DNA from: Zygophlyctis sp. KS116
Lineage: Eukaryota; Fungi; Chytridiomycota
Reading direction: 5' to 3'
Length of the DNA stretch: 6,055 bases
Assembly (NCBI GenBank): GCA_054661495.1
Contig: BAAFSQ010000454.1
Coordinates: 1-6,055, forward strand
Shown: piece after piece, positions 1 to 6,055 of the stretch
Layout: each line of letters opens with the position of its first letter
Numbering within the stretch: position 1 is the first letter of the stretch
Position numbers and translations under genes: made by a program
The notes under the pieces: generated by a model
The model's database searches: none
What the model was told of the DNA's origin: nothing
The model's input: the letters and a program-made list of their open reading frames with translations, nothing else

Positions 1-157
1 AATTTTTATTGGTTTATACACTTTTAATGGCTAGTATATTAAGCATCTTTGATCATGATACATCTTTATTGAATTATTTTAAAGAATTACTAGTGCTCAA
101 TCATTATAAAATCATAAATTGGATGAAAAAACGGCAATATATCATAAATGGTATCTT
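1..157 (+). repeat. Internal 157-bp direct repeat, copy A (also 5495-5651)
   Basis: Matches 454-610 with one mismatch (A109 vs C562); spacing is 453 bp = 151 codons. Confidence 0.95.
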
Positions 158-743
158 GTCTTCTGGAAAGATTTCGAATTCGAAATTTAAGTTTACTATT
201 CTTTATCTTTGGACACTAAACATACTGAAATTTAAAGTCTTGAAAGCATTGGATCTACATGTTATACAACAAACGCGCATGATTGAAAATTGCATTTATA
301 TTTTTGAACGAAACTTGATGGGTGGATATGTTAATGGATTGAATCTTCAGTATATTTTAGAGCAGATACAGTCACTGCTTCTTGGAAAATTTCAACTTGT
401 TTGGAATATTTTTAGAGGTACATATTCCACTGGGACCATTATCGCGTCCCTCCAATTTTTATTGGTTTATACACTTTTAATGGCTAGTATATTAAGCATC
501 TTTGATCATGATACATCTTTATTGAATTATTTTAAAGAATTACTAGTGCTCAATCATTATACAATCATAAATTGGATGAAAAAACGGCAATATATCATAA
601 ATGGTATCTTTTTAGAAAAGAGTATCCATAAAGTTCTCCTAATCTCTCTTTGTTTTTGGAGACTAATACTTAACGTAATACCAATTCAAGTTTCCTGCTT
701 GCACGATGATCGTATATACAAAACAGATCAAGGGAAATTTTAA
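3..743 (+). CDS. ORF-X, C-terminal part (the 244-aa ORF 9-743 is a 5'-truncated piece of the ORF starting at 5104)
   Basis: The frame is open from the window edge. It contains an in-frame duplicated ~52-aa block (FLLVYTLLMASILSIF...QYIINGI) and ends at TAA 741-743, overlapping the APE-RT frame. Confidence 0.68.
   Translation, partial: FLLVYTLLMASILSIFDHDTSLLNYFKELLVLNHYKIINWMKKRQYIINGILSSGKISNSKFKFTILYLWTLNILKFKVLKALDLHVIQQTRMIENCIYIFERNLMGGYVNGLNLQYILEQIQSLLLGKFQLVWNIFRGTYSTGTIIASLQFLLVYTLLMASILSIFDHDTSLLNYFKELLVLNHYTIINWMKKRQYIINGIFLEKSIHKVLLISLCFWRLILNVIPIQVSCLHDDRIYKTDQGKF
171..186. repeat. Perfect 16-bp palindrome (also 5665-5680)
   Basis: ATTTCGAATTCGAAAT is its own reverse complement. 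Confidence 0.85.
454..610 (+). repeat. Internal 157-bp direct repeat, copy B (partial copy at 5948-6055)
   Basis: Matches 1-157 with one mismatch. Confidence 0.95.
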
Positions 744-3739
744 AACTTTTCTACATTAATATTTGCGGGCTTGATCATGTGAAGTTAAGATACTTGGAAA
801 ATAAATTAGATGATGCCAACGAGCCAACCATCATCATCATAGCTGAACACTGGTTCAGTAAATTTTTCAGTCTGCAAGAATCAAGATACTTTTTCTGTAG
901 TACACCTTTAATTAATTACCGTGACGTTGGACATCAAAATGGGGGACTTGCGGTTTTAGCATCTCGGACAGTTATACCATTAATCAAGGAAGCAAATGTG
1001 TCAGAGTTTTCTATACAATTTACAATCGGGTTAGAAACAATCAAGGCAGTTTATCTACCTCCCAGACTGTCCCTAGAAGAAGTCGAAAAAGTAATATCAG
1101 CTGAGACAAATCAAGTATCAATATTGTTAGGAGATATAAATGTACGTTTTGGAAAACTCTTAAATTACAAACGAACTTGGAATACACCTAGGGGACAGAA
1201 GATCATTTCAATCTTAGAAAGTTACGACATGCATTTACAACCGTCAACGGGGAAATTCTCTGGAAATGACCACGTCTTCAGCCGGAAAAATGAAACCTGG
1301 GAATATTATAAGTTAACAGATGCTCAAATGAGAACTGACCATGGAATGATTGATCTTAGCATACCTCTAGACAGACGAATTCCTCACGCTACCATTATCG
1401 GCCAAGAAAAAAGATATGCTTTCTCAATATTAAAAGATCCTATATTTAGAGATGTGATCAAAAATGACTGGATTACTGAACAGCCATTTCTTGTAGAATT
1501 TGTGGGGAAAGTACGCTTCCAGCTTAAATTGGGCAGGATAAAATCTTACCAGTCCGCACTTGAAGTGATCAACATCACATATGATACTCTTGCAGGGGCA
1601 ATAATGAATCTCTGCGAAAGAAACTTCCCAACCTATGACCCAGAAAATATAAAAAGTCAGAGAGCCACATCTCAAAATCTTGATAGTACTAACTGCTCAA
1701 CTGTTTTTGCCATTAGACAGTTTAAAAGATCCCAAAGGTTATATACCCAGGCCCAGAAATTTAAATCTTCAACAGATACTGATGTCTTGCAAGAAGCAGT
1801 GGAGTATTATTCAAACATATACTCTTCAACAACCGGCCAAGCTACATTTGATTGGTCAGATGAGTTAGTATCCAATCATTGTTGGAAAACTGATGCAGAC
1901 CAGATAGCAACAATCATAAAGCAATACAGTTCAGCGAAAGCAGCAGGTCCTGATGGAATGCATTCCTCGCTGCTTAAATGCTTATTGGAAGTTAAAGGAT
2001 TTTCCTCGCTCATAGCCGAGCTCTTTAACATATGCTTAGAATATTCGATTACTCCTCTAGCGTGGAATACATCCCGAATCCACCTTCTGATGAAGGACCC
2101 TTTAACACCATATATAGCTTCATCAAGAGCTGTATCACTTACATGTATGTTTCGAAGATTCTTTGAAAAAATCGTGCTCAGAAATAGTCTAAATGAAACC
2201 TGGAGTCAGTTACATGCAAATCAGGCCGGATTTCGGAAAGGCTGGAGCACCGTATCACATATCCTGTTAAATGATGATATGTGTCGGAGTGGATTTAATA
2301 TCTCAGCTTATTTGGACTTGAAAAGTGCATTTGATGTAGTCGATCACAGATATCTCTTCAAAATACTTAGGCAAAGAGGGGCTCCTATACAAATCTGTAA
2401 ACTCATCTACTCACTCATGGTAAATAACTGCGGATCTACGATAGCAGTGAATGGGATAGTGTCTGAAACAAAGATTCAAAGATCTCGAGGATTGTTCCAA
2501 GGGAGTATTCTCTCACCGATGCTCTTCAATATGCTAATAGATATTCTTGCAGAACAGATAACAGTTGAACTACCCCCATCCACTGTTATTCTCTTGTTTG
2601 CTGATGACATTGTGATCAAAACTAATGACTGGGTTCGATTACAACACGCCTTAGATATCTGCTACAATTGGAGTGCTAACTCCAAAATTGATTGGGGAAT
2701 ACGAAAATGCGGCGTAATTTCTAAATATGAAAGTTATCCAGTATTATTGGGAGCTGAAGTAGTCCCTGTTGTTTCTCAGTACAAATATCTGGGCCTTCCT
2801 TTCACAGCAAACGGAGTAGATTGGAAACAATATCTTTACAAGATCATGGACAAACATAATAAGTTTATCCAGGGAATTCAACTTCAATCACAAGTTTGGA
2901 CAATGAACAATAGGCTTATAATATATAGGACCTTTGTTCGACCGATCCTTGACTATTGCCTTCCTGTACTAACTCGTTGGATATCTAAACAGCAAGACTC
3001 CAAAGAGATGTTTGGTCAACTTGAAGCTACATATGGTGATGGAATCAAATGGATAATGGGCAGAGACCGTCCTTTAAAAATACTTGAAATAATTACAGGC
3101 CTAGGATCCTTCAAATTTAGAATTTCTCAGGTTGAAGCTTCCCTGGCAAACCATATCCACCTCCTCCAACAAACAAATCCACTTATTTCTTATATGAAAT
3201 CACATTTTCTTTCATTAAATAAGAATTTTATTCTTATGGACTGCAAAAAGAGTAGAATACTTCAAGAATGGAGAGTTTATTTTAAATCGGAAAAATTTCC
3301 CCTTAAATATAGAACATGGCTATTAAAACAGAAATGGCTGGAATATAAAATGCTTCCAGGAAAGTTGCACCACTATATACTTCCTCGAAGTCGAACCAAA
3401 TCTGGGGCGGACAAACTTATGCAACAAAAGTATCCAATAGCAAACAAATCTCTTCAATGGCGCTGTAATTTCTCTTTCATCAATAAATACTGTCCCGAAT
3501 GCTTCAACAAGTTCAATAGAAGACACTTGGCAAGATGTAATTTGTACTCACTATTAGATGAAAGGACACAAAGTATGTTTAAAACTACCCAATACAGGGT
3601 TGATATGAGCAAGATAAATTCTATAATCAATCAAGATGCTGAAAATTACACAGTTTTGGACTTCTACCTCAACAATGGAGATTATGACAGTTTTTTACAT
3701 CTGTACGATCAAATCTCAACACTATTGGCAGAAGTCTAG
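710..3739 (+). CDS. LINE ORF2-type polyprotein: apurinic/apyrimidinic-like endonuclease + reverse transcriptase + CCHC zinc knuckle (ORF track calls 779-3739 from GTG; the true start is upstream)
   Basis: APE motifs: LKLFYINICGL (740-772, upstream of the called GTG), IIIIAEHW, GGLAVL, AVYLPP, LLGDIN, NDHVF, TDHGMI. RT motifs: KAAGPDG, RAVSL..FRRFFEKI, QAGFRKGWST, YLDLKSAFDVV, RGLFQGSILSPMLF, LFADD (FADD 2597-2608), YKYLG. The frame is open from 710 (TGA at 707-709) to TAG 3737-3739. Confidence 0.95.
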   Translation, partial: SYIQNRSREILKLFYINICGLDHVKLRYLENKLDDANEPTIIIIAEHWFSKFFSLQESRYFFCSTPLINYRDVGHQNGGLAVLASRTVIPLIKEANVSEFSIQFTIGLETIKAVYLPPRLSLEEVEKVISAETNQVSILLGDINVRFGKLLNYKRTWNTPRGQKIISILESYDMHLQPSTGKFSGNDHVFSRKNETWEYYKLTDAQMRTDHGMIDLSIPLDRRIPHATIIGQEKRYAFSILKDPIFRDVIKNDWITEQPFLVEFVGKVRFQLKLGRIKSYQSALEVINITYDTLAGAIMNLCERNFPTYDPENIKSQRATSQNLDSTNCSTVFAIRQFKRSQRLYTQAQKFKSSTDTDVLQEAVEYYSNIYSSTTGQATFDWSDELVSNHCWKTDADQIATIIKQYSSAKAAGPDGMHSSLLKCLLEVKGFSSLIAELFNICLEYSITPLAWNTSRIHLLMKDPLTPYIASSRAVSLTCMFRRFFEKIVLRNSLNETWSQLHANQAGFRKGWSTVSHILLNDDMCRSGFNISAYLDLKSAFDVVDHRYLFKILRQRGAPIQICKLIYSLMVNNCGSTIAVNGIVSETKIQRSRGLFQGSILSPMLFNMLIDILAEQITVELPPSTVILLFADDIVIKTNDWVRLQHALDICYNWSANSKIDWGIRKCGVISKYESYPVLLGAEVVPVVSQYKYLGLPFTANGVDWKQYLYKIMDKHNKFIQGIQLQSQVWTMNNRLIIYRTFVRPILDYCLPVLTRWISKQQDSKEMFGQLEATYGDGIKWIMGRDRPLKILEIITGLGSFKFRISQVEASLANHIHLLQQTNPLISYMKSHFLSLNKNFILMDCKKSRILQEWRVYFKSEKFPLKYRTWLLKQKWLEYKMLPGKLHHYILPRSRTKSGADKLMQQKYPIANKSLQWRCNFSFINKYCPECFNKFNRRHLARCNLYSLLDERTQSMFKTTQYRVDMSKINSIINQDAENYTVLDFYLNNGDYDSFLHLYDQISTLLAEV
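740..1351 (+). other. APE (exonuclease-endonuclease-phosphatase superfamily) endonuclease domain
   Basis: Conserved catalytic-type residues occur in the right order: N (INICGL), E (AEHW), Y (VYLP), D-x-N (GDIN 1130-1141), D (NDH), DH (TDH 1334-1342). Confidence 0.88.
1937..2794 (+). other. Non-LTR reverse transcriptase domain
   Basis: All canonical blocks from KAAGPDG to YKYLG are present, with an intact FADD catalytic motif. Confidence 0.95.
3491..3538 (+). other. C-terminal CCHC zinc-knuckle motif of ORF2
   Basis: CPECFNKFNRRHLARC = C-x2-C-x7-H-x3-C, at the position typical of LINE ORF2 proteins. Confidence 0.8.
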
Positions 3740-3745
3740 AAAAAT

Positions 3746-3783
3746 CCGTTCTCTTTCCTATATAAAAGGTTTTCCGAGAACGG
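3746..3783 (+). other. Stem-loop just after the RT stop codon
   Basis: CCGTTCTC (3746-3753) pairs perfectly with GAGAACGG (3776-3783). An inner CCT/AGG stem closes the loop ATATAAA. Confidence 0.6.
3759..3768 (+). promoter_or_regulatory. Candidate TATA box
   Basis: TATATAAAAG matches TATAWAWR and lies about 100 bp upstream of the ORF1 ATG, in the only non-coding segment. Confidence 0.5.
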
Positions 3784-3816
3784 TCGGGGTTCAACTCGTG
3801 CAAAATAATTAAAATT

Positions 3817-3822
3817 AATAAA
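3817..3822 (+). terminator. Candidate polyadenylation signal
   Basis: AATAAA 78 bp after the RT stop, preceded by ATTAAA (3808-3813). The AT-rich context lowers significance. Confidence 0.35.
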
Positions 3823-3863
3823 TCTCTTACTTCCTAACCCTAAGTTCATCTGAAAATGGATCT

Positions 3864-5114
3864 ATGAATATGGATGAGGAAGAAGATGCTAGTTTGGTGG
3901 ATCTTGAAAACTTCGAAAAATCATCTTCGAATGAAACATTATCGGATATTAACTTGGCTTTAGAAAAAAGAATTTCTAATCTTGAAAAAGAACTTAATGA
4001 ATTGAAAGAAACTACAAAAGCTTATGTTGATCGATTTGGAACTATTGAAAAAGAAATAGTGAAATCAAGAATGGAGAATACTAATGCTACTAATGAATTA
4101 GCAAAACTTATGAAAGTTATGATTGCTCAACAAAATAATAAGTCTCTCGATGAAACTTTTGATCAGGGAAAATCCGTTAGTTTCCAAAGACCAGATACCT
4201 TTAATAGAAAAAGTACGAATACCAATGCTCCTGTTTCGATTTTAAAAAACACTGATACAAGCAGCAAGAAAATTAGTTATGCAGAAGTAACAAAGGAAAA
4301 TGTTAAAGGCTATGATACAAATGAGATTGTATCTCCAAAAAATGGAGTTAATAATGATCAAGAGAAAGAACTGAAAGCATTCTTAGAAACATCCAGAAAA
4401 GCAGAGAGACGAAAGGTGGAAAGAGAAACAATAACTCCTTCGGAATTAAAAATGGTTTACATTAGAGGGTTCGGTTCCACGATGACAATTTCGAAAATTA
4501 AAGCACATCTTTACAAATTGAAATTCTTACTTACAAAGATTCGTAATATTAGATATGTTGGAATTTCGACTGTAGAATTCATGGTTGAAGAATCTTATTA
4601 TATACGATTCATGAAAAGATTTCAGGGAATGGATACTCACTTTACAATTATCGAAAACTATAACCTTGTAAAAAATCCTTGGGAAAACATTCCAGATCAA
4701 GAATTCAACTCTAAGATCAGATCAGCAACTCAAAGAATCTATAAAAGTTCTATGAAATCTAATGATCGTACTGTCCAAATTTTCTTTTCGGAATTAATTG
4801 ACTCACTTGGGCCCGTTGCAATAAAAGAGGCAGAAAGATGTAACGAAGAAATAGATCGAACATCAAAAGAATCTCATAAAAAAGATGTTACACAGAATTC
4901 AGATAAGGAAGTGACAGGGCAAAACTTTTCTGATAGTATTCTTGTTGAGCCTCCTAAAAAGAAGAATGAAGAAAGTAAATCAACAGACATTTCTGAAATA
5001 GAAATTGAAGAAAATGACTTAGACTCTGTTGACTTAACGAACGATTCAAATAACAATTTGGAAAATGAAGACATCGAAATGGACAATATAGATCATACTA
5101 ATAATGATCAGTAG
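3864..5114 (+). CDS. ORF1 / gag-like nucleic-acid-binding protein of the retroelement (416 aa)
   Basis: N-terminal heptad coiled coil (LEKRISNLEKELNELKE), a low-complexity linker with SYAEV, an RRM-like block (LKMVYIRGF...IKAHL...IRNIRYVG..TVEFMV) and an acidic D/E/N-rich tail. This layout is typical of LINE ORF1 proteins. No CCHC knuckle was seen. Confidence 0.78.
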   Translation: MNMDEEEDASLVDLENFEKSSSNETLSDINLALEKRISNLEKELNELKETTKAYVDRFGTIEKEIVKSRMENTNATNELAKLMKVMIAQQNNKSLDETFDQGKSVSFQRPDTFNRKSTNTNAPVSILKNTDTSSKKISYAEVTKENVKGYDTNEIVSPKNGVNNDQEKELKAFLETSRKAERRKVERETITPSELKMVYIRGFGSTMTISKIKAHLYKLKFLLTKIRNIRYVGISTVEFMVEESYYIRFMKRFQGMDTHFTIIENYNLVKNPWENIPDQEFNSKIRSATQRIYKSSMKSNDRTVQIFFSELIDSLGPVAIKEAERCNEEIDRTSKESHKKDVTQNSDKEVTGQNFSDSILVEPPKKKNEESKSTDISEIEIEENDLDSVDLTNDSNNNLENEDIEMDNIDHTNNDQ

Positions 5115-6055
5115 GTCCAAAAAAACCTGCAGGCAAATTATTTTATGTGACTATCAATTGGTATCAGTGAGAAGATACTTAAATAGATTCACTCAAAATT
5201 ATTTGGATGATACTTCTACTACAAAACGCTCTAATTCTGGCATACTTTCAAAAGAGTATAGAATATTTAACCATCTGAAACTTAACTTTGACCACTGCAA
5301 TTGGACGATATTAAAATTGACAAAAAAATGTTTACATGGGATCATGATAGGCATAGTACAAAACCCAAGGTTAATGAAAATTGTTCAACATGTCAATTTA
5401 GACAAGTGGTTTCGCCATATTGGGTATCAAGACTATATCATATTGCCAAGAGATATGTGTAAAGTTAATTATTCCAGTGGGATAAAACTCCCTAAATTTT
5501 TATTGGTTTATACACTTTTAATGGCTAGTATATTAAGCATCTTTGATCATGATACATCTTTATTGAATTATTTTAAAGAATTACTAGTGCTCAATCATTA
5601 TAAAATCATAAATTGGATGAAAAAACGGCAATATATCATAAATGGTATCTTGTCTTCTGGAAAGATTTCGAATTCGAAATTTAAGTTTACTATTCTTTAT
5701 CTTTGGACACTAAACATACTGAAATTTAAAGTCTTGAAAGCATTGGATCTACATGTTATACAACAAACGCGCATGATTGAAAATTGCATTTATATTTTTG
5801 AACGAAACTTGATGGGTGGATATGTTAATGGATTGAATCTTCAGTATATTTTAGAGCAGATACAGTCACTGCTTCTTGGAAAATTTCAACTTGTTTGGAA
5901 TATTTTTAGAGGTACATATTCCACTGGGACCATTATCGCGTCCCTCCAATTTTTATTGGTTTATACACTTTTAATGGCTAGTATATTAAGCATCTTTGAT
6001 CATGATACATCTTTATTGAATTATTTTAAAGAATTACTAGTGCTCAATCATTATA
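5104..6055 (+). CDS. ORF-X, N-terminal part (runs off the window and continues at 562-743 through the terminal overlap; 377 aa in total); hydrophobic protein of unknown function
   Basis: Hand translation from ATG 5104 (in-frame TAG upstream at 5089-5091) gives MISRSKKTCRQIILCDYQLVSVRRYLNRF...YSSGIKLPKFLLVYTLL... with no stop before the window end. It is in frame with the 9-743 ORF of the first copy, and the ORF track probably omits it because no stop lies in the window. Confidence 0.7.
   Translation, partial: MISRSKKTCRQIILCDYQLVSVRRYLNRFTQNYLDDTSTTKRSNSGILSKEYRIFNHLKLNFDHCNWTILKLTKKCLHGIMIGIVQNPRLMKIVQHVNLDKWFRHIGYQDYIILPRDMCKVNYSSGIKLPKFLLVYTLLMASILSIFDHDTSLLNYFKELLVLNHYKIINWMKKRQYIINGILSSGKISNSKFKFTILYLWTLNILKFKVLKALDLHVIQQTRMIENCIYIFERNLMGGYVNGLNLQYILEQIQSLLLGKFQLVWNIFRGTYSTGTIIASLQFLLVYTLLMASILSIFDHDTSLLNYFKELLVLNHY
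5495..6055 (+). repeat. Terminal direct repeat, right copy (561 bp)
   Basis: Identical by eye to 1-561. Confidence 0.97.

What the first reader, a model, noticed from the sequence alone, without database searches (positions are those of the whole stretch)
5104..6055. Hidden third ORF (ORF-X, 377 aa) between ORF1 and APE-RT encoding a hydrophobic, possibly membrane protein
Seen: 377 stop-free codons from ATG 5104 across the junction to TAA 743 in very AT-rich DNA, where random frames close quickly. It overlaps ORF1 by 11 nt and the RT frame at its end. Hydrophobic segments are FLLVYTLLMASILSIF twice (5497-5544; 456-503) and VLLISLCFWRLILNVIPI (633-686). I recognise no domain. Known: canonical LINEs have ORF1 + ORF2 only, and membrane/env-like extra ORFs are mainly a feature of LTR elements. 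Inference: this is an accessory gene (membrane anchoring, cell-to-cell transfer or host interaction), or a translated spacer that couples ORF1 to RT.
Basis: partly seen in the sequence, partly recalled or inferred. Interest (0 to 1): 0.82.

Follow-up and report, generated by a model that had tools for sequence, protein, structure and literature searches.

The report
Retrotransposon's extra ORF: a ribosome bridge
A jumping gene from a freshwater microbe carries a real extra 377-codon reading frame between its two normal genes, but its amino acids drift as if unselected and its greasy stretches are no more than chance, so it likely works as a translated bridge that would carry ribosomes to the copying enzyme, not as a membrane protein.

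Summary
ORF-X is a stop-free 377-codon frame (chance about 1e-12) between ORF1 and the APE-RT frame. It was assembled independently (P0033) and has one distant open homologue (P0032, 360 aa, 31-43% identical). The membrane reading is not supported: random stop-free DNA of the same make-up gives such hydrophobic segments, one variant breaks the first one, and the homologue has none. The protein drifts: 17/377 residues differ against 5/495 in RT of the same element (p=0.0016), and substitutions to P0032 match a neutral, stop-avoiding simulation. It holds an in-frame 453-nt repeat of variable copy number. Its ATG overlaps the ORF1 stop by 11 nt, the commonest ORF1/ORF2 junction among relatives. 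Its own stop overlaps an ATT at the start of the ATG-less RT frame. Best reading (0.6): a translated bridge for two successive termination-reinitiation steps. The element belongs to an APE-LINE family that I did not find described, whose members end in CCTAACCCTAA. An earlier unreviewed scan note reached the same reading for a mussel Tx1 element. Against: one frameshifted copy, translation not shown, and P0032's context unseen.

The parts
5104..6055 (+). ORF-X, 5' part (ATG 5104; 317 codons to the window's end)
   Evidence: full 377-aa form on record as P0033
3..743 (+). ORF-X, 3' part, same frame, ending TAA 741-743 (1-561 duplicates 5495-6055)
5495..5947 (+). 453-nt (151-codon) in-frame repeat unit of ORF-X; one full unit here, two in P0002. 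The duplicated block is 5453-5651 / 406-610 (91% with gaps)
   Evidence: joint 5947->5495 in 4 of 4 runs and 1 of 4
1..561 (+). Exact copy of 5495-6055: the window runs once round a tandem or looped unit of 5494 nt; not an LTR
5104..5114 (+). ORF1 stop / ORF-X start overlap of 11 nt, the family's commonest ORF1/ORF2 geometry
737..743 (+). ATT 737-739 in the RT frame, overlapped by the ORF-X stop by 7 nt; aligns with the first residue (M) called for sister RT P0005; inferred near-cognate restart
   Evidence: inference
710..3739 (+). ORF2 frame, 1009 codons: APE endonuclease, RT, C-terminal C-x2-C-x7-H-x3-C; first in-frame ATG only at 1229
3740..3843 (+). 3' UTR with AATAAA (3817-3822), ending in CCTAACCCTAA (3833-3843); the element's 3' end
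   Evidence: sequence; loose ends continuing as CCCTAA in X5 and X11; same end in 14 of 18 related loci
3864..5114 (+). ORF1 (416 aa from ATG 3864): RRM-type core, acidic tail; likely 5'-truncated at 3844 in this copy
   Evidence: other upstream sequence at 3844 in X5 and X11
5497..5544 (+). Hydrophobic stretch 1 (repeated at 456-503 = 5950-5997); broken by H, E, R in variant P0033
633..686 (+). Hydrophobic stretch near the ORF-X C-terminus (KD19 1.89); within chance for this base make-up

Best explanation
ORF-X is a real stop-free frame between ORF1 and the RT frame of a non-LTR retrotransposon, its amino acids drift at about the neutral rate, and it likely serves as a translated bridge: ribosomes ending ORF1 would restart at its overlapping ATG, run through a 1.1-kb repeat-bearing spacer, and would restart again at the ATG-less RT frame beside its stop. 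Shown: the open frame, both overlap geometries, fast amino-acid change, the in-frame variable repeat, and presence in an RNA library. Inferred: translation, reinitiation at ATG 5104 and at ATT 737, and selection on openness rather than on the protein. Why the spacer exists at all is open. A cis role for the repeats, such as an internal promoter for RT-only copies, is an untested guess.
For: (1) Geometry: in 10 of 11 related loci examined, the last in-frame ATG before the APE domain overlaps the stop of the open upstream frame, by 11 nt in 6, 4 nt in 2, 14 nt in 1, and 7 or 11 nt in L010; no ATG was found in L014. ORF-X's ATG has the same 11-nt overlap with ORF1. (2) The RT frame has no ATG until codon 174. 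ORF-X's stop overlaps an ATT that aligns with the M called for P0005. The 62%-identical cluster is called from L in P0004/P0042 and M in P0043 at the same place, which suggests a non-ATG start there too. (3) Drift: 17/377 against 5/495 residues (P0033 and P0038 vs window, Fisher p=0.0016); 10/213 against 13/985 (P0002, P0036; p=0.003); 4 of 15 changes silent, against a neutral 27%. Mean BLOSUM of substitutions to P0032 is -0.66, against -0.63 to -0.74 (sd 0.2) in neutral stop-avoiding simulations; 36 of 40 RT windows scored higher than -0.62. (4) Openness is kept: without stop avoidance, 0 of 1000 simulated pairs stayed open at each of three divergences. Repeat periods are whole codons: 151 aa here, 154 aa in P0032, 141, 147 and 141 nt in L003, L005, L006. 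L004's rearranged spacer has a 140-nt period, reads one repeat in two frames, and is still open for 164 codons up to the 11-nt overlap (P about 2.5e-4). (5) No family or fold: Pfam none, PDB none, Atlas best 0.83, AlphaFold pLDDT 34 against 78 for the ORF1 core. (6) RNA run X15 has identical contigs over 5035-5317 and 5517-5807. (7) Literature passages: termination-reinitiation works at 1-14-nt overlaps and tolerates non-AUG starts in caliciviruses, and is reported for SART1 and L1 (PMC5972666); a long L1 spacer inhibits retrotransposition, more so when its AUGs are removed (PMC4072516).
Against: One of 6 DNA runs laid (X13; one contig, depth 3.87) has an 11-nt deletion at 5690 that breaks the frame. 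The silent/replacement contrast between ORF-X and RT is not significant (p=0.30). The BLOSUM test is weak: 85 aligned positions, and 4 of 40 RT windows score as low. P0032 keeps W, G, N and F residues in a 48-residue block, which could be protein-level constraint, and its genomic position could not be seen. The frames upstream of RT in L003-L006 show no homology to ORF-X, lie in a different subclade, and may be ORF1 tails because their contigs end there. L002, in the window's own clade, is 5'-truncated and uninformative. RNA contigs give no strand and may be DNA; X16 covers only ORF1 pieces of the stretch laid. No RNA structure above shuffles at either junction (z -0.35 to -1.39), and no UGGGA just upstream of either stop. 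The poor fold rests on a shallow alignment (5 rows, two families).
Confidence: 0.6

Rival explanations
1. ORF-X makes a functional, fast-evolving soluble accessory protein (for example a helical repeat protein that meets a host factor or the element's RNP), expressed by coupling to ORF1.
For: Homologue P0032 has a similar length, a similar 150-residue repeat and a shared 48-residue block at 43% identity. Fast change is also expected in host-conflict proteins. The family's start geometry predicts real translation.
Against: Substitutions are radical and match the neutral simulation. Codon-position bias equals that of random stop-free DNA (chi2 11.2 vs 13.2; RT windows are only a little higher at 16-20, so the test is weak). 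No family, look-alike or confident fold. Only one distant homologue among 1.84 billion representatives; the other hit, P0031, is a 51-copy fish repeat.
Confidence: 0.2
2. ORF-X is an N-terminal extension of ORF2, joined to RT by a -1 ribosomal frameshift in the 34-nt overlap (710-743).
For: ORF-X starts where ORF2 starts in relatives. The RT frame is -1 to ORF-X and open from 710. Residues Q-x-R-S upstream of the APE motif are shared with P0007/P0044.
Against: By eye, no X XXY YYZ heptamer in the ORF-X frame within the overlap; the two slippery-looking words there are in the third frame. No stable downstream structure (z -0.35). The stop sits at a stop/start overlap like those of relatives.
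Confidence: 0.1
3. ORF-X is a membrane or env-like protein that anchors the particle or moves it between cells.
For: Two or three 19-residue windows reach KD 1.9-2.2 in the window, P0002 and P0033. Small TM-bearing extra ORFs are known in bdelloid LTR elements (PMC5408684, passages).
Against: Such windows arise at chance rates. The first segment is broken in P0033, and P0032 has none. No signal peptide is evident by eye. No dedicated TM predictor was available.
Confidence: 0.07
4. ORF-X is a chance frame or an assembly artefact of the repeat loop.
For: The window begins and ends at a repeat branch, and no single contig in the runs laid spans the whole unit.
Against: Both halves are open on their own; log10 P = -11.7; an independent 377-aa record exists; a distant open homologue exists.
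Confidence: 0.03

Closest known systems
L1/Tx1-type two-ORF LINEs with termination-reinitiation (human L1; long-spacer megabat L1, PMC4072516; SART1 coupling as cited in PMC5972666)
   Same: ORF1 with an RRM-type core, then an APE-RT-CCHC ORF2; ORF2 reached through a stop/start junction; a long spacer is costly, and AUGs within it help (passages).
   Different: Here the 1.1-kb spacer is one continuous open frame with a variable in-frame repeat, the RT frame has no ATG, and the tail is CCCTAA-like rather than poly(A). Human L1 ORF2p did not appear among 12 PDB hits of the RT profile; R2 RTs scored best. Clade membership was not tested.
TRAS (Bombyx, R1 clade, APE type, telomere-repeat specific; PMC7265360 passages)
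   Same: APE-type LINE associated with the C-rich telomere strand on its sense side.
   Different: The repeat is CCCTAA. Most relatives carry only 1.5-2 units followed by other sequence, so telomeric targeting is not shown. The ORF1 type differs, and a middle ORF is not described for TRAS in the passages I saw.
MoTeR/FoTeR fungal telomeric retrotransposons (PMC12857005 passages)
   Same: Variable tandem repeats upstream of the RT ORF; association with telomere repeats.
   Different: Those have one ORF with a C-terminal restriction-like endonuclease and short VNTRs, mostly upstream of the ORF; this element has an N-terminal APE, an ORF1, and a 453-nt repeat held in frame.
Grem-LINE1 of Mucorales (bioRxiv 10.1101/706580 passages)
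   Same: Two overlapping ORFs with APE-RT. ORF1 look-alikes in the Atlas are mostly Mucoromycota (0.91-0.95), which hints at an early-diverging fungal host.
   Different: Grem has zinc-knuckle ORF1, zf-RVT, a poly(A) signal and a pericentromeric location; no such Pfam domains here.
Extra ORF3s of bdelloid LTR and Athena elements (PMC5408684 passages)
   Same: An accessory ORF in a retroelement, some with TM segments.
   Different: Those are in LTR or Penelope-like elements and encode recognisable enzymes or env-like proteins; ORF-X has no recognisable domain or conserved TM segment.

Membership tests
APE-type non-LTR retrotransposon (LINE) | RT domain in ORF2 | tested here: met
   RVT_1 E 4e-23, residues 471-697
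APE-type non-LTR retrotransposon (LINE) | N-terminal APE endonuclease | tested here: met
   Exo_endo_phos_2 E 0.001, below Pfam's cut-off; motifs N..G, EHW, GDIN, NDH, (S/T)DH nearly invariant in the 24-row alignment (their identity as APE motifs is recalled)
APE-type non-LTR retrotransposon (LINE) | C-terminal CCHC-like motif | tested here: met
   C-x2-C-x7-H-x3-C in the sequence, present in most rows
APE-type non-LTR retrotransposon (LINE) | ORF1 with an RNA-binding (RRM) domain | tested here: inconclusive
   Model with an RRM/ferredoxin-like strand and helix order, pLDDT 78; Foldseek top hits RRM domains but best E 0.026; homologous to ORF1 of L007, E 2e-18
APE-type non-LTR retrotransposon (LINE) | No LTRs; 5'-truncated copies | tested here: met
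   The 561-nt terminal repeat lies inside ORF-X; other upstream sequence at 3844 in two studies; truncated relatives L001, L002
APE-type non-LTR retrotransposon (LINE) | Only two sense ORFs | tested here: not met
   Third frame ORF-X; relatives L007, L009, L011, L016 have the two-ORF form
APE-type non-LTR retrotransposon (LINE) | Target-site duplications | not testable with these tools
   No host genome held; flanks seen only as loose ends of up to 30 letters
Telomere-repeat-specific LINE (TRAS-like) | Insertion into telomeric repeat arrays | tested here: inconclusive
   3' end CCTAACCCTAA-like in 14 of 18 loci, further repeats behind it in X5 and L016, but unique DNA after 1.5-2 units in most loci
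Telomere-repeat-specific LINE (TRAS-like) | R1-clade RT | not tested
   No named reference RTs in the tree
MoTeR/FoTeR (CRE-like) | Single ORF with C-terminal restriction-like endonuclease | tested here: not met
   APE at the N-terminus and a separate ORF1; no PD-(D/E)xK seen by eye after the CCHC motif
MoTeR/FoTeR (CRE-like) | Variable tandem repeats upstream of the RT ORF | tested here: met
   453-nt unit in 1 or 2 copies
Env-like / membrane accessory ORF | Conserved transmembrane segment(s) | tested here: not met
   Chance-level hydropathy, broken in P0033, absent in P0032; hydropathy scale only, no TM predictor
Env-like / membrane accessory ORF | LTR element with integrase, extra ORF behind pol | tested here: not met
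   No integrase or RNase H in Pfam; ORF-X lies before RT
Grem-LINE1 | Zinc-knuckle ORF1 and zf-RVT domain | tested here: not met
   No such Pfam hit at E up to 1; L007 ORF1 has a weak InsA-type Zn ribbon instead

The most novel reading that the evidence does not exclude
This is a tricistronic LINE in an undescribed, CCCTAA-tailed family of freshwater micro-eukaryotes. Its middle ORF is an expandable translated bridge whose repeat number tunes RT dose through two successive stop/restart steps, the second at a non-AUG codon. Such bridges would have arisen more than once, in this family's subclades and in unrelated Tx1 elements, as a general way for LINEs to carry long cis-acting repeat arrays between ORF1 and ORF2.
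Probability: 0.3. Interest if true: 0.75.

Novelty: new variant of a known kind. Interest (0 to 1): 0.52.

Why it matters
How ORF2 of LINEs is translated, and why some LINEs keep long spacers that should cost them activity (the megabat L1 puzzle, PMC4072516), are open questions. A natural element whose spacer is kept stop-free while its residues drift makes the termination-reinitiation model directly testable, with one stop codon against a recoded open frame. It also warns that long hydrophobic ORFs in AT-rich elements can be selected for openness alone. Separately, the family's CCCTAA-type tail suggests an APE lineage that primes on TTAGGG-like targets, possibly in early-diverging fungi.

Tried and rejected
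No host genome is held. Rfam found nothing at E up to 1. The single-protein RT scan of metagenome contigs, the RT-profile scan of viral contigs and the ORF-X scan of genome contigs found nothing. The RT-profile scan of genome contigs gave 9 distant loci at 24-29% identity, which I did not analyse. The weak Pfam DASH_Dad3 hit on ORF-X (E 0.009, 17 residues, below cut-off) and the fish repeat protein P0031 were rejected as chance. An alternative genetic code was rejected by eye, because all three stop codons occur in the other frames. An antisense gene was rejected (17-26 stops). A profile of the ORF-X/P0032 repeat found no homology in the upstream regions of 11 loci (best E 0.35). The ORF-X model (pLDDT 34) was too poor for a fold search. 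The 561-nt terminal repeat was rejected as an LTR. Contig depths (RT part and repeat loop about 1.4-2.2 times ORF1 in X1 and X2; loop higher still in X4 and X5) hint at extra repeat copies or copies starting in the repeats, but are no copy number. P0032 ends in QC-stop, which would fit a 7-nt ATG/stop overlap before an RT starting M-L-N like P0005; this is a hint only, as the two records could not be linked. An out-of-frame ATG at 706 opens a 17-codon frame; I found no role for it.
Full report
Observation. The window reads R-a-R-b-R-a-R: 1-561 equals 5495-6055 exactly, and inside it a block of 157 nt (205 nt with gaps) recurs 453 nt further on. One frame is open from ATG 5104 to the window's end and from position 3 to TAA 743, which gives 377 codons. 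Shuffles reach at most 153 codons against 281 for the unique 5' part. For 324 unique codons log10 P is -11.7. The full 377-aa protein is on record from an independent assembly (P0033), with a locus tag next to a partial RT, both on 3645-bp contigs. That record is labelled as a bacterial MAG; I read it as eukaryotic carry-over (inference). P0002 has two copies of the 151-aa unit, so the repeat number varies and 377 aa is one form.

The element. 710-3739 is an APE-RT-CCHC frame with no ATG before 1229. 3864-5114 is ORF1, with an RRM-like core (model pLDDT 78; Foldseek hits RRM domains but only E 0.026) that is homologous to ORF1 of relatives. Its Atlas look-alikes are mostly Mucoromycota. Runs that hold the element are mostly freshwater, lake or estuary metagenomes (20 of 23 listed hold it or a part; 3 may be the source). 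The host is likely a freshwater micro-eukaryote, perhaps an early-diverging fungus; it is not determined. The true 3' end is 3843. Contigs of X5 and X11 go on there as CCCTAA repeats, and in the same two studies other sequence precedes 3844. Read by hand, its 30 visible letters continue the ORF1 frame without a stop. The window is therefore best read as a head-to-tail junction with a 5'-truncated copy; the X1 and X2 contigs cross this junction with only 30 letters on the left, one short of the tool's bridging rule. Twenty-three RT homologues at 27-100% identity form one family, supported at 100 in a FastTree tree of 43 rows with four distant rows as outgroup (no bootstrap, no named clades). 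Of 18 related metagenome loci, 14 end in a CCTAACC/CCCTAAC-type word 25-184 nt behind the RT stop. The pattern was set after I had seen the tails and includes one variant word for L012; without it the count is 13. Two misses are cut 26 and 51 nt after the stop, and two are partial matches. Most carry only 1.5-2 repeat units followed by other sequence, so the tail is shown but telomeric targeting is not.

Junctions. In 10 of 11 loci examined, the last ATG before the APE domain overlaps the stop of the upstream open frame: 11 nt in six, 4 nt in two, 14 nt in one, 7 or 11 nt in L010; L014 had no ATG in range. L007, L009, L011 and L016 join ORF1 directly to RT. In the window, ORF-X's ATG takes exactly this 11-nt position at the ORF1 stop. 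ORF-X's stop in turn overlaps by 7 nt an ATT (737-739) that aligns with the first residue called for the sister RT P0005. In L003-L006 the frame upstream of RT is open to the contig edge (68, 164, 117 and 85 codons). In the three measured (L003, L005, L006) it is mildly hydrophobic, unlike most ORF1 tails (L012 is an exception). It holds repeats of 141, 140, 147 and 141 nt. Chance of openness is 0.06, 0.013 and 0.034 for L003, L005 and L006 and about 2.5e-4 for L004. These frames show no homology to ORF-X, sit in another subclade sister to L007, and could be ORF1 tails.

What is selected. The search of 1.84 billion representatives gave three hits: P0002, a fish repeat artefact, and P0032 (360 aa, E 5e-7, 45.7 bits against at most 11 for 2000 shuffles), which has its own 154-aa repeat. 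A profile search added nothing. Without stop avoidance no simulated pair stays open at this divergence (0 of 1000 at three levels), so stops are avoided, provided P0032 is a true counterpart; its DNA context could not be seen. The residues, however, drift. ORF-X differs from P0033 at 17 of 377 places while RT differs from P0038 at 5 of 495 (p=0.0016); P0002 against P0036 gives 10/213 and 13/985 (p=0.003). Of the variants listed (18 more were not shown), 4 of 15 in ORF-X are silent, equal to the neutral 27%. In RT 9 of 21 are silent, or 10 when two changes in one codon are taken together, as entered in the test; the difference is not significant (p=0.30). Substitutions to P0032 have mean BLOSUM -0.66, like neutral stop-avoiding simulations (-0.63 to -0.74, sd 0.2), whereas 36 of 40 RT windows score higher than -0.62. 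Against strict openness, one contig of X13 has an 11-nt deletion at 5690; the other five DNA runs laid list no indel in ORF-X, though they do not all cover it fully.

Membrane idea. Peaks of KD19 1.9-2.2 are present, but random stop-free DNA of this make-up reaches 1.6 in 79%, 2.19 in 22% and two segments in 46% of 3000 trials. P0033 reads H, E, R within the first segment, and P0032 has no segment over 1.45. No Pfam, PDB or Atlas match; AlphaFold pLDDT is 34 on a shallow alignment. RNA run X15 has identical contigs at 5035-5317, across the ORF1/ORF-X junction, and at 5517-5807; X16 covers only ORF1 pieces. Strand and DNA carry-over are unknown.

Mechanism. The most economical reading is a translated bridge. 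Passages of PMC5972666 describe termination-reinitiation at 1-14-nt overlaps, tolerance of non-AUG restarts, and coupling in SART1 and L1. Passages of PMC4072516 show that a 445-nt L1 spacer cuts retrotransposition about 26-fold and that an AUG-free spacer is worse. A 1.1-kb spacer would thus be tolerable if ribosomes translate through it and stop beside the RT start, which selects for an open frame and whole-codon repeats but not for residues. Translation, both restarts and the reason for the spacer are inferred. I give this 0.6, a functional soluble protein 0.2, a -1 fusion 0.1, a membrane protein 0.07 and an artefact 0.03.

Comparison and novelty. It works like a coupled two-ORF LINE and carries a tail that recalls TRAS, MoTeR and FoTeR. 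It fails their defining tests or leaves them untested (passages of PMC7265360, PMC12857005, PMC10088271, bioRxiv 706580, PMC5408684, PMC9926174, PMC5821460, PMC2241872; no whole text and no supplements read; Alisch 2006 and Kojima 2005 seen only as cited). Seven full-text searches listed no description of this family or of a stop-free middle ORF in a LINE. I saw only listings for most hits, only 25 of 55 and 20 of 75 were listed in two searches, and the library lacks subscription journals and Repbase. An earlier unreviewed note of this scan (e1-8605157) reached the same reading for a mussel Tx1 group. I met it after my own tests and did not check it; it is not independent evidence. Verdict: a real feature and a new variant of a known kind, interest 0.52.

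Noticed in passing
window 3833-3843 and 3' ends of L001-L005, L007, L008, L010-L016: A whole APE-LINE family ends in AATAAA..CTCTTA..CCTAACCCTAA-like words instead of poly(A); it may prime on TTAGGG-like targets. I did not find it described.
   Followed up: partly
window 3844: ORF1 appears 5'-truncated here: two studies (X5, X11) show another, in-frame upstream sequence, and relatives L007 and L016 start ORF1 with a CPKC zinc-ribbon region that the window lacks.
   Followed up: partly
window 5490-5495: The only internal CCCTAA lies right at the left edge of the exact repeat; it may be a self-insertion target or the origin of the duplication.
   Followed up: no
window 5058-5205 (run X1, record 5): A 90%-alike relative starts at 5058 directly behind a family-type 3' end with telomere-like repeats and diverges after 5205: a second subfamily with a different spacer in the same sample.
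   Followed up: no
L004:1-495: Mosaic spacer: an L003-type repeat, the first 30 codons of an L003-type RT and an L005-type end, open for 164 codons up to the 11-nt overlap.
   Followed up: partly
L001:1-103 and 2723-2825: A 5'-truncated relative assembled as a head-to-tail unit joined at its CCCTAA end, like the window.
   Followed up: no
window 3746-3783: An 8-bp stem in the 3' UTR (whole UTR z -1.36, not significant); L003-L007 share a different conserved 3' UTR word (CAGCCA..TGGGTTTT..AATGCAA), a candidate RT-recognition hairpin.
   Followed up: partly
window 710-3739: The family's RT profile matches R2 RT structures best (E 1e-36), and human L1 ORF2p is not among 12 PDB hits, although the element has an APE endonuclease; its clade placement may be unusual.
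   Followed up: no
window 706-759: An ATG one base out of frame with RT opens a 17-codon frame across the ORF-X stop.
   Followed up: no
P0033/P0038 (NCBI MAG) and L019-L027: Eukaryote-type LINE contigs sit inside bacterial MAG records, likely bin contamination.
   Followed up: no
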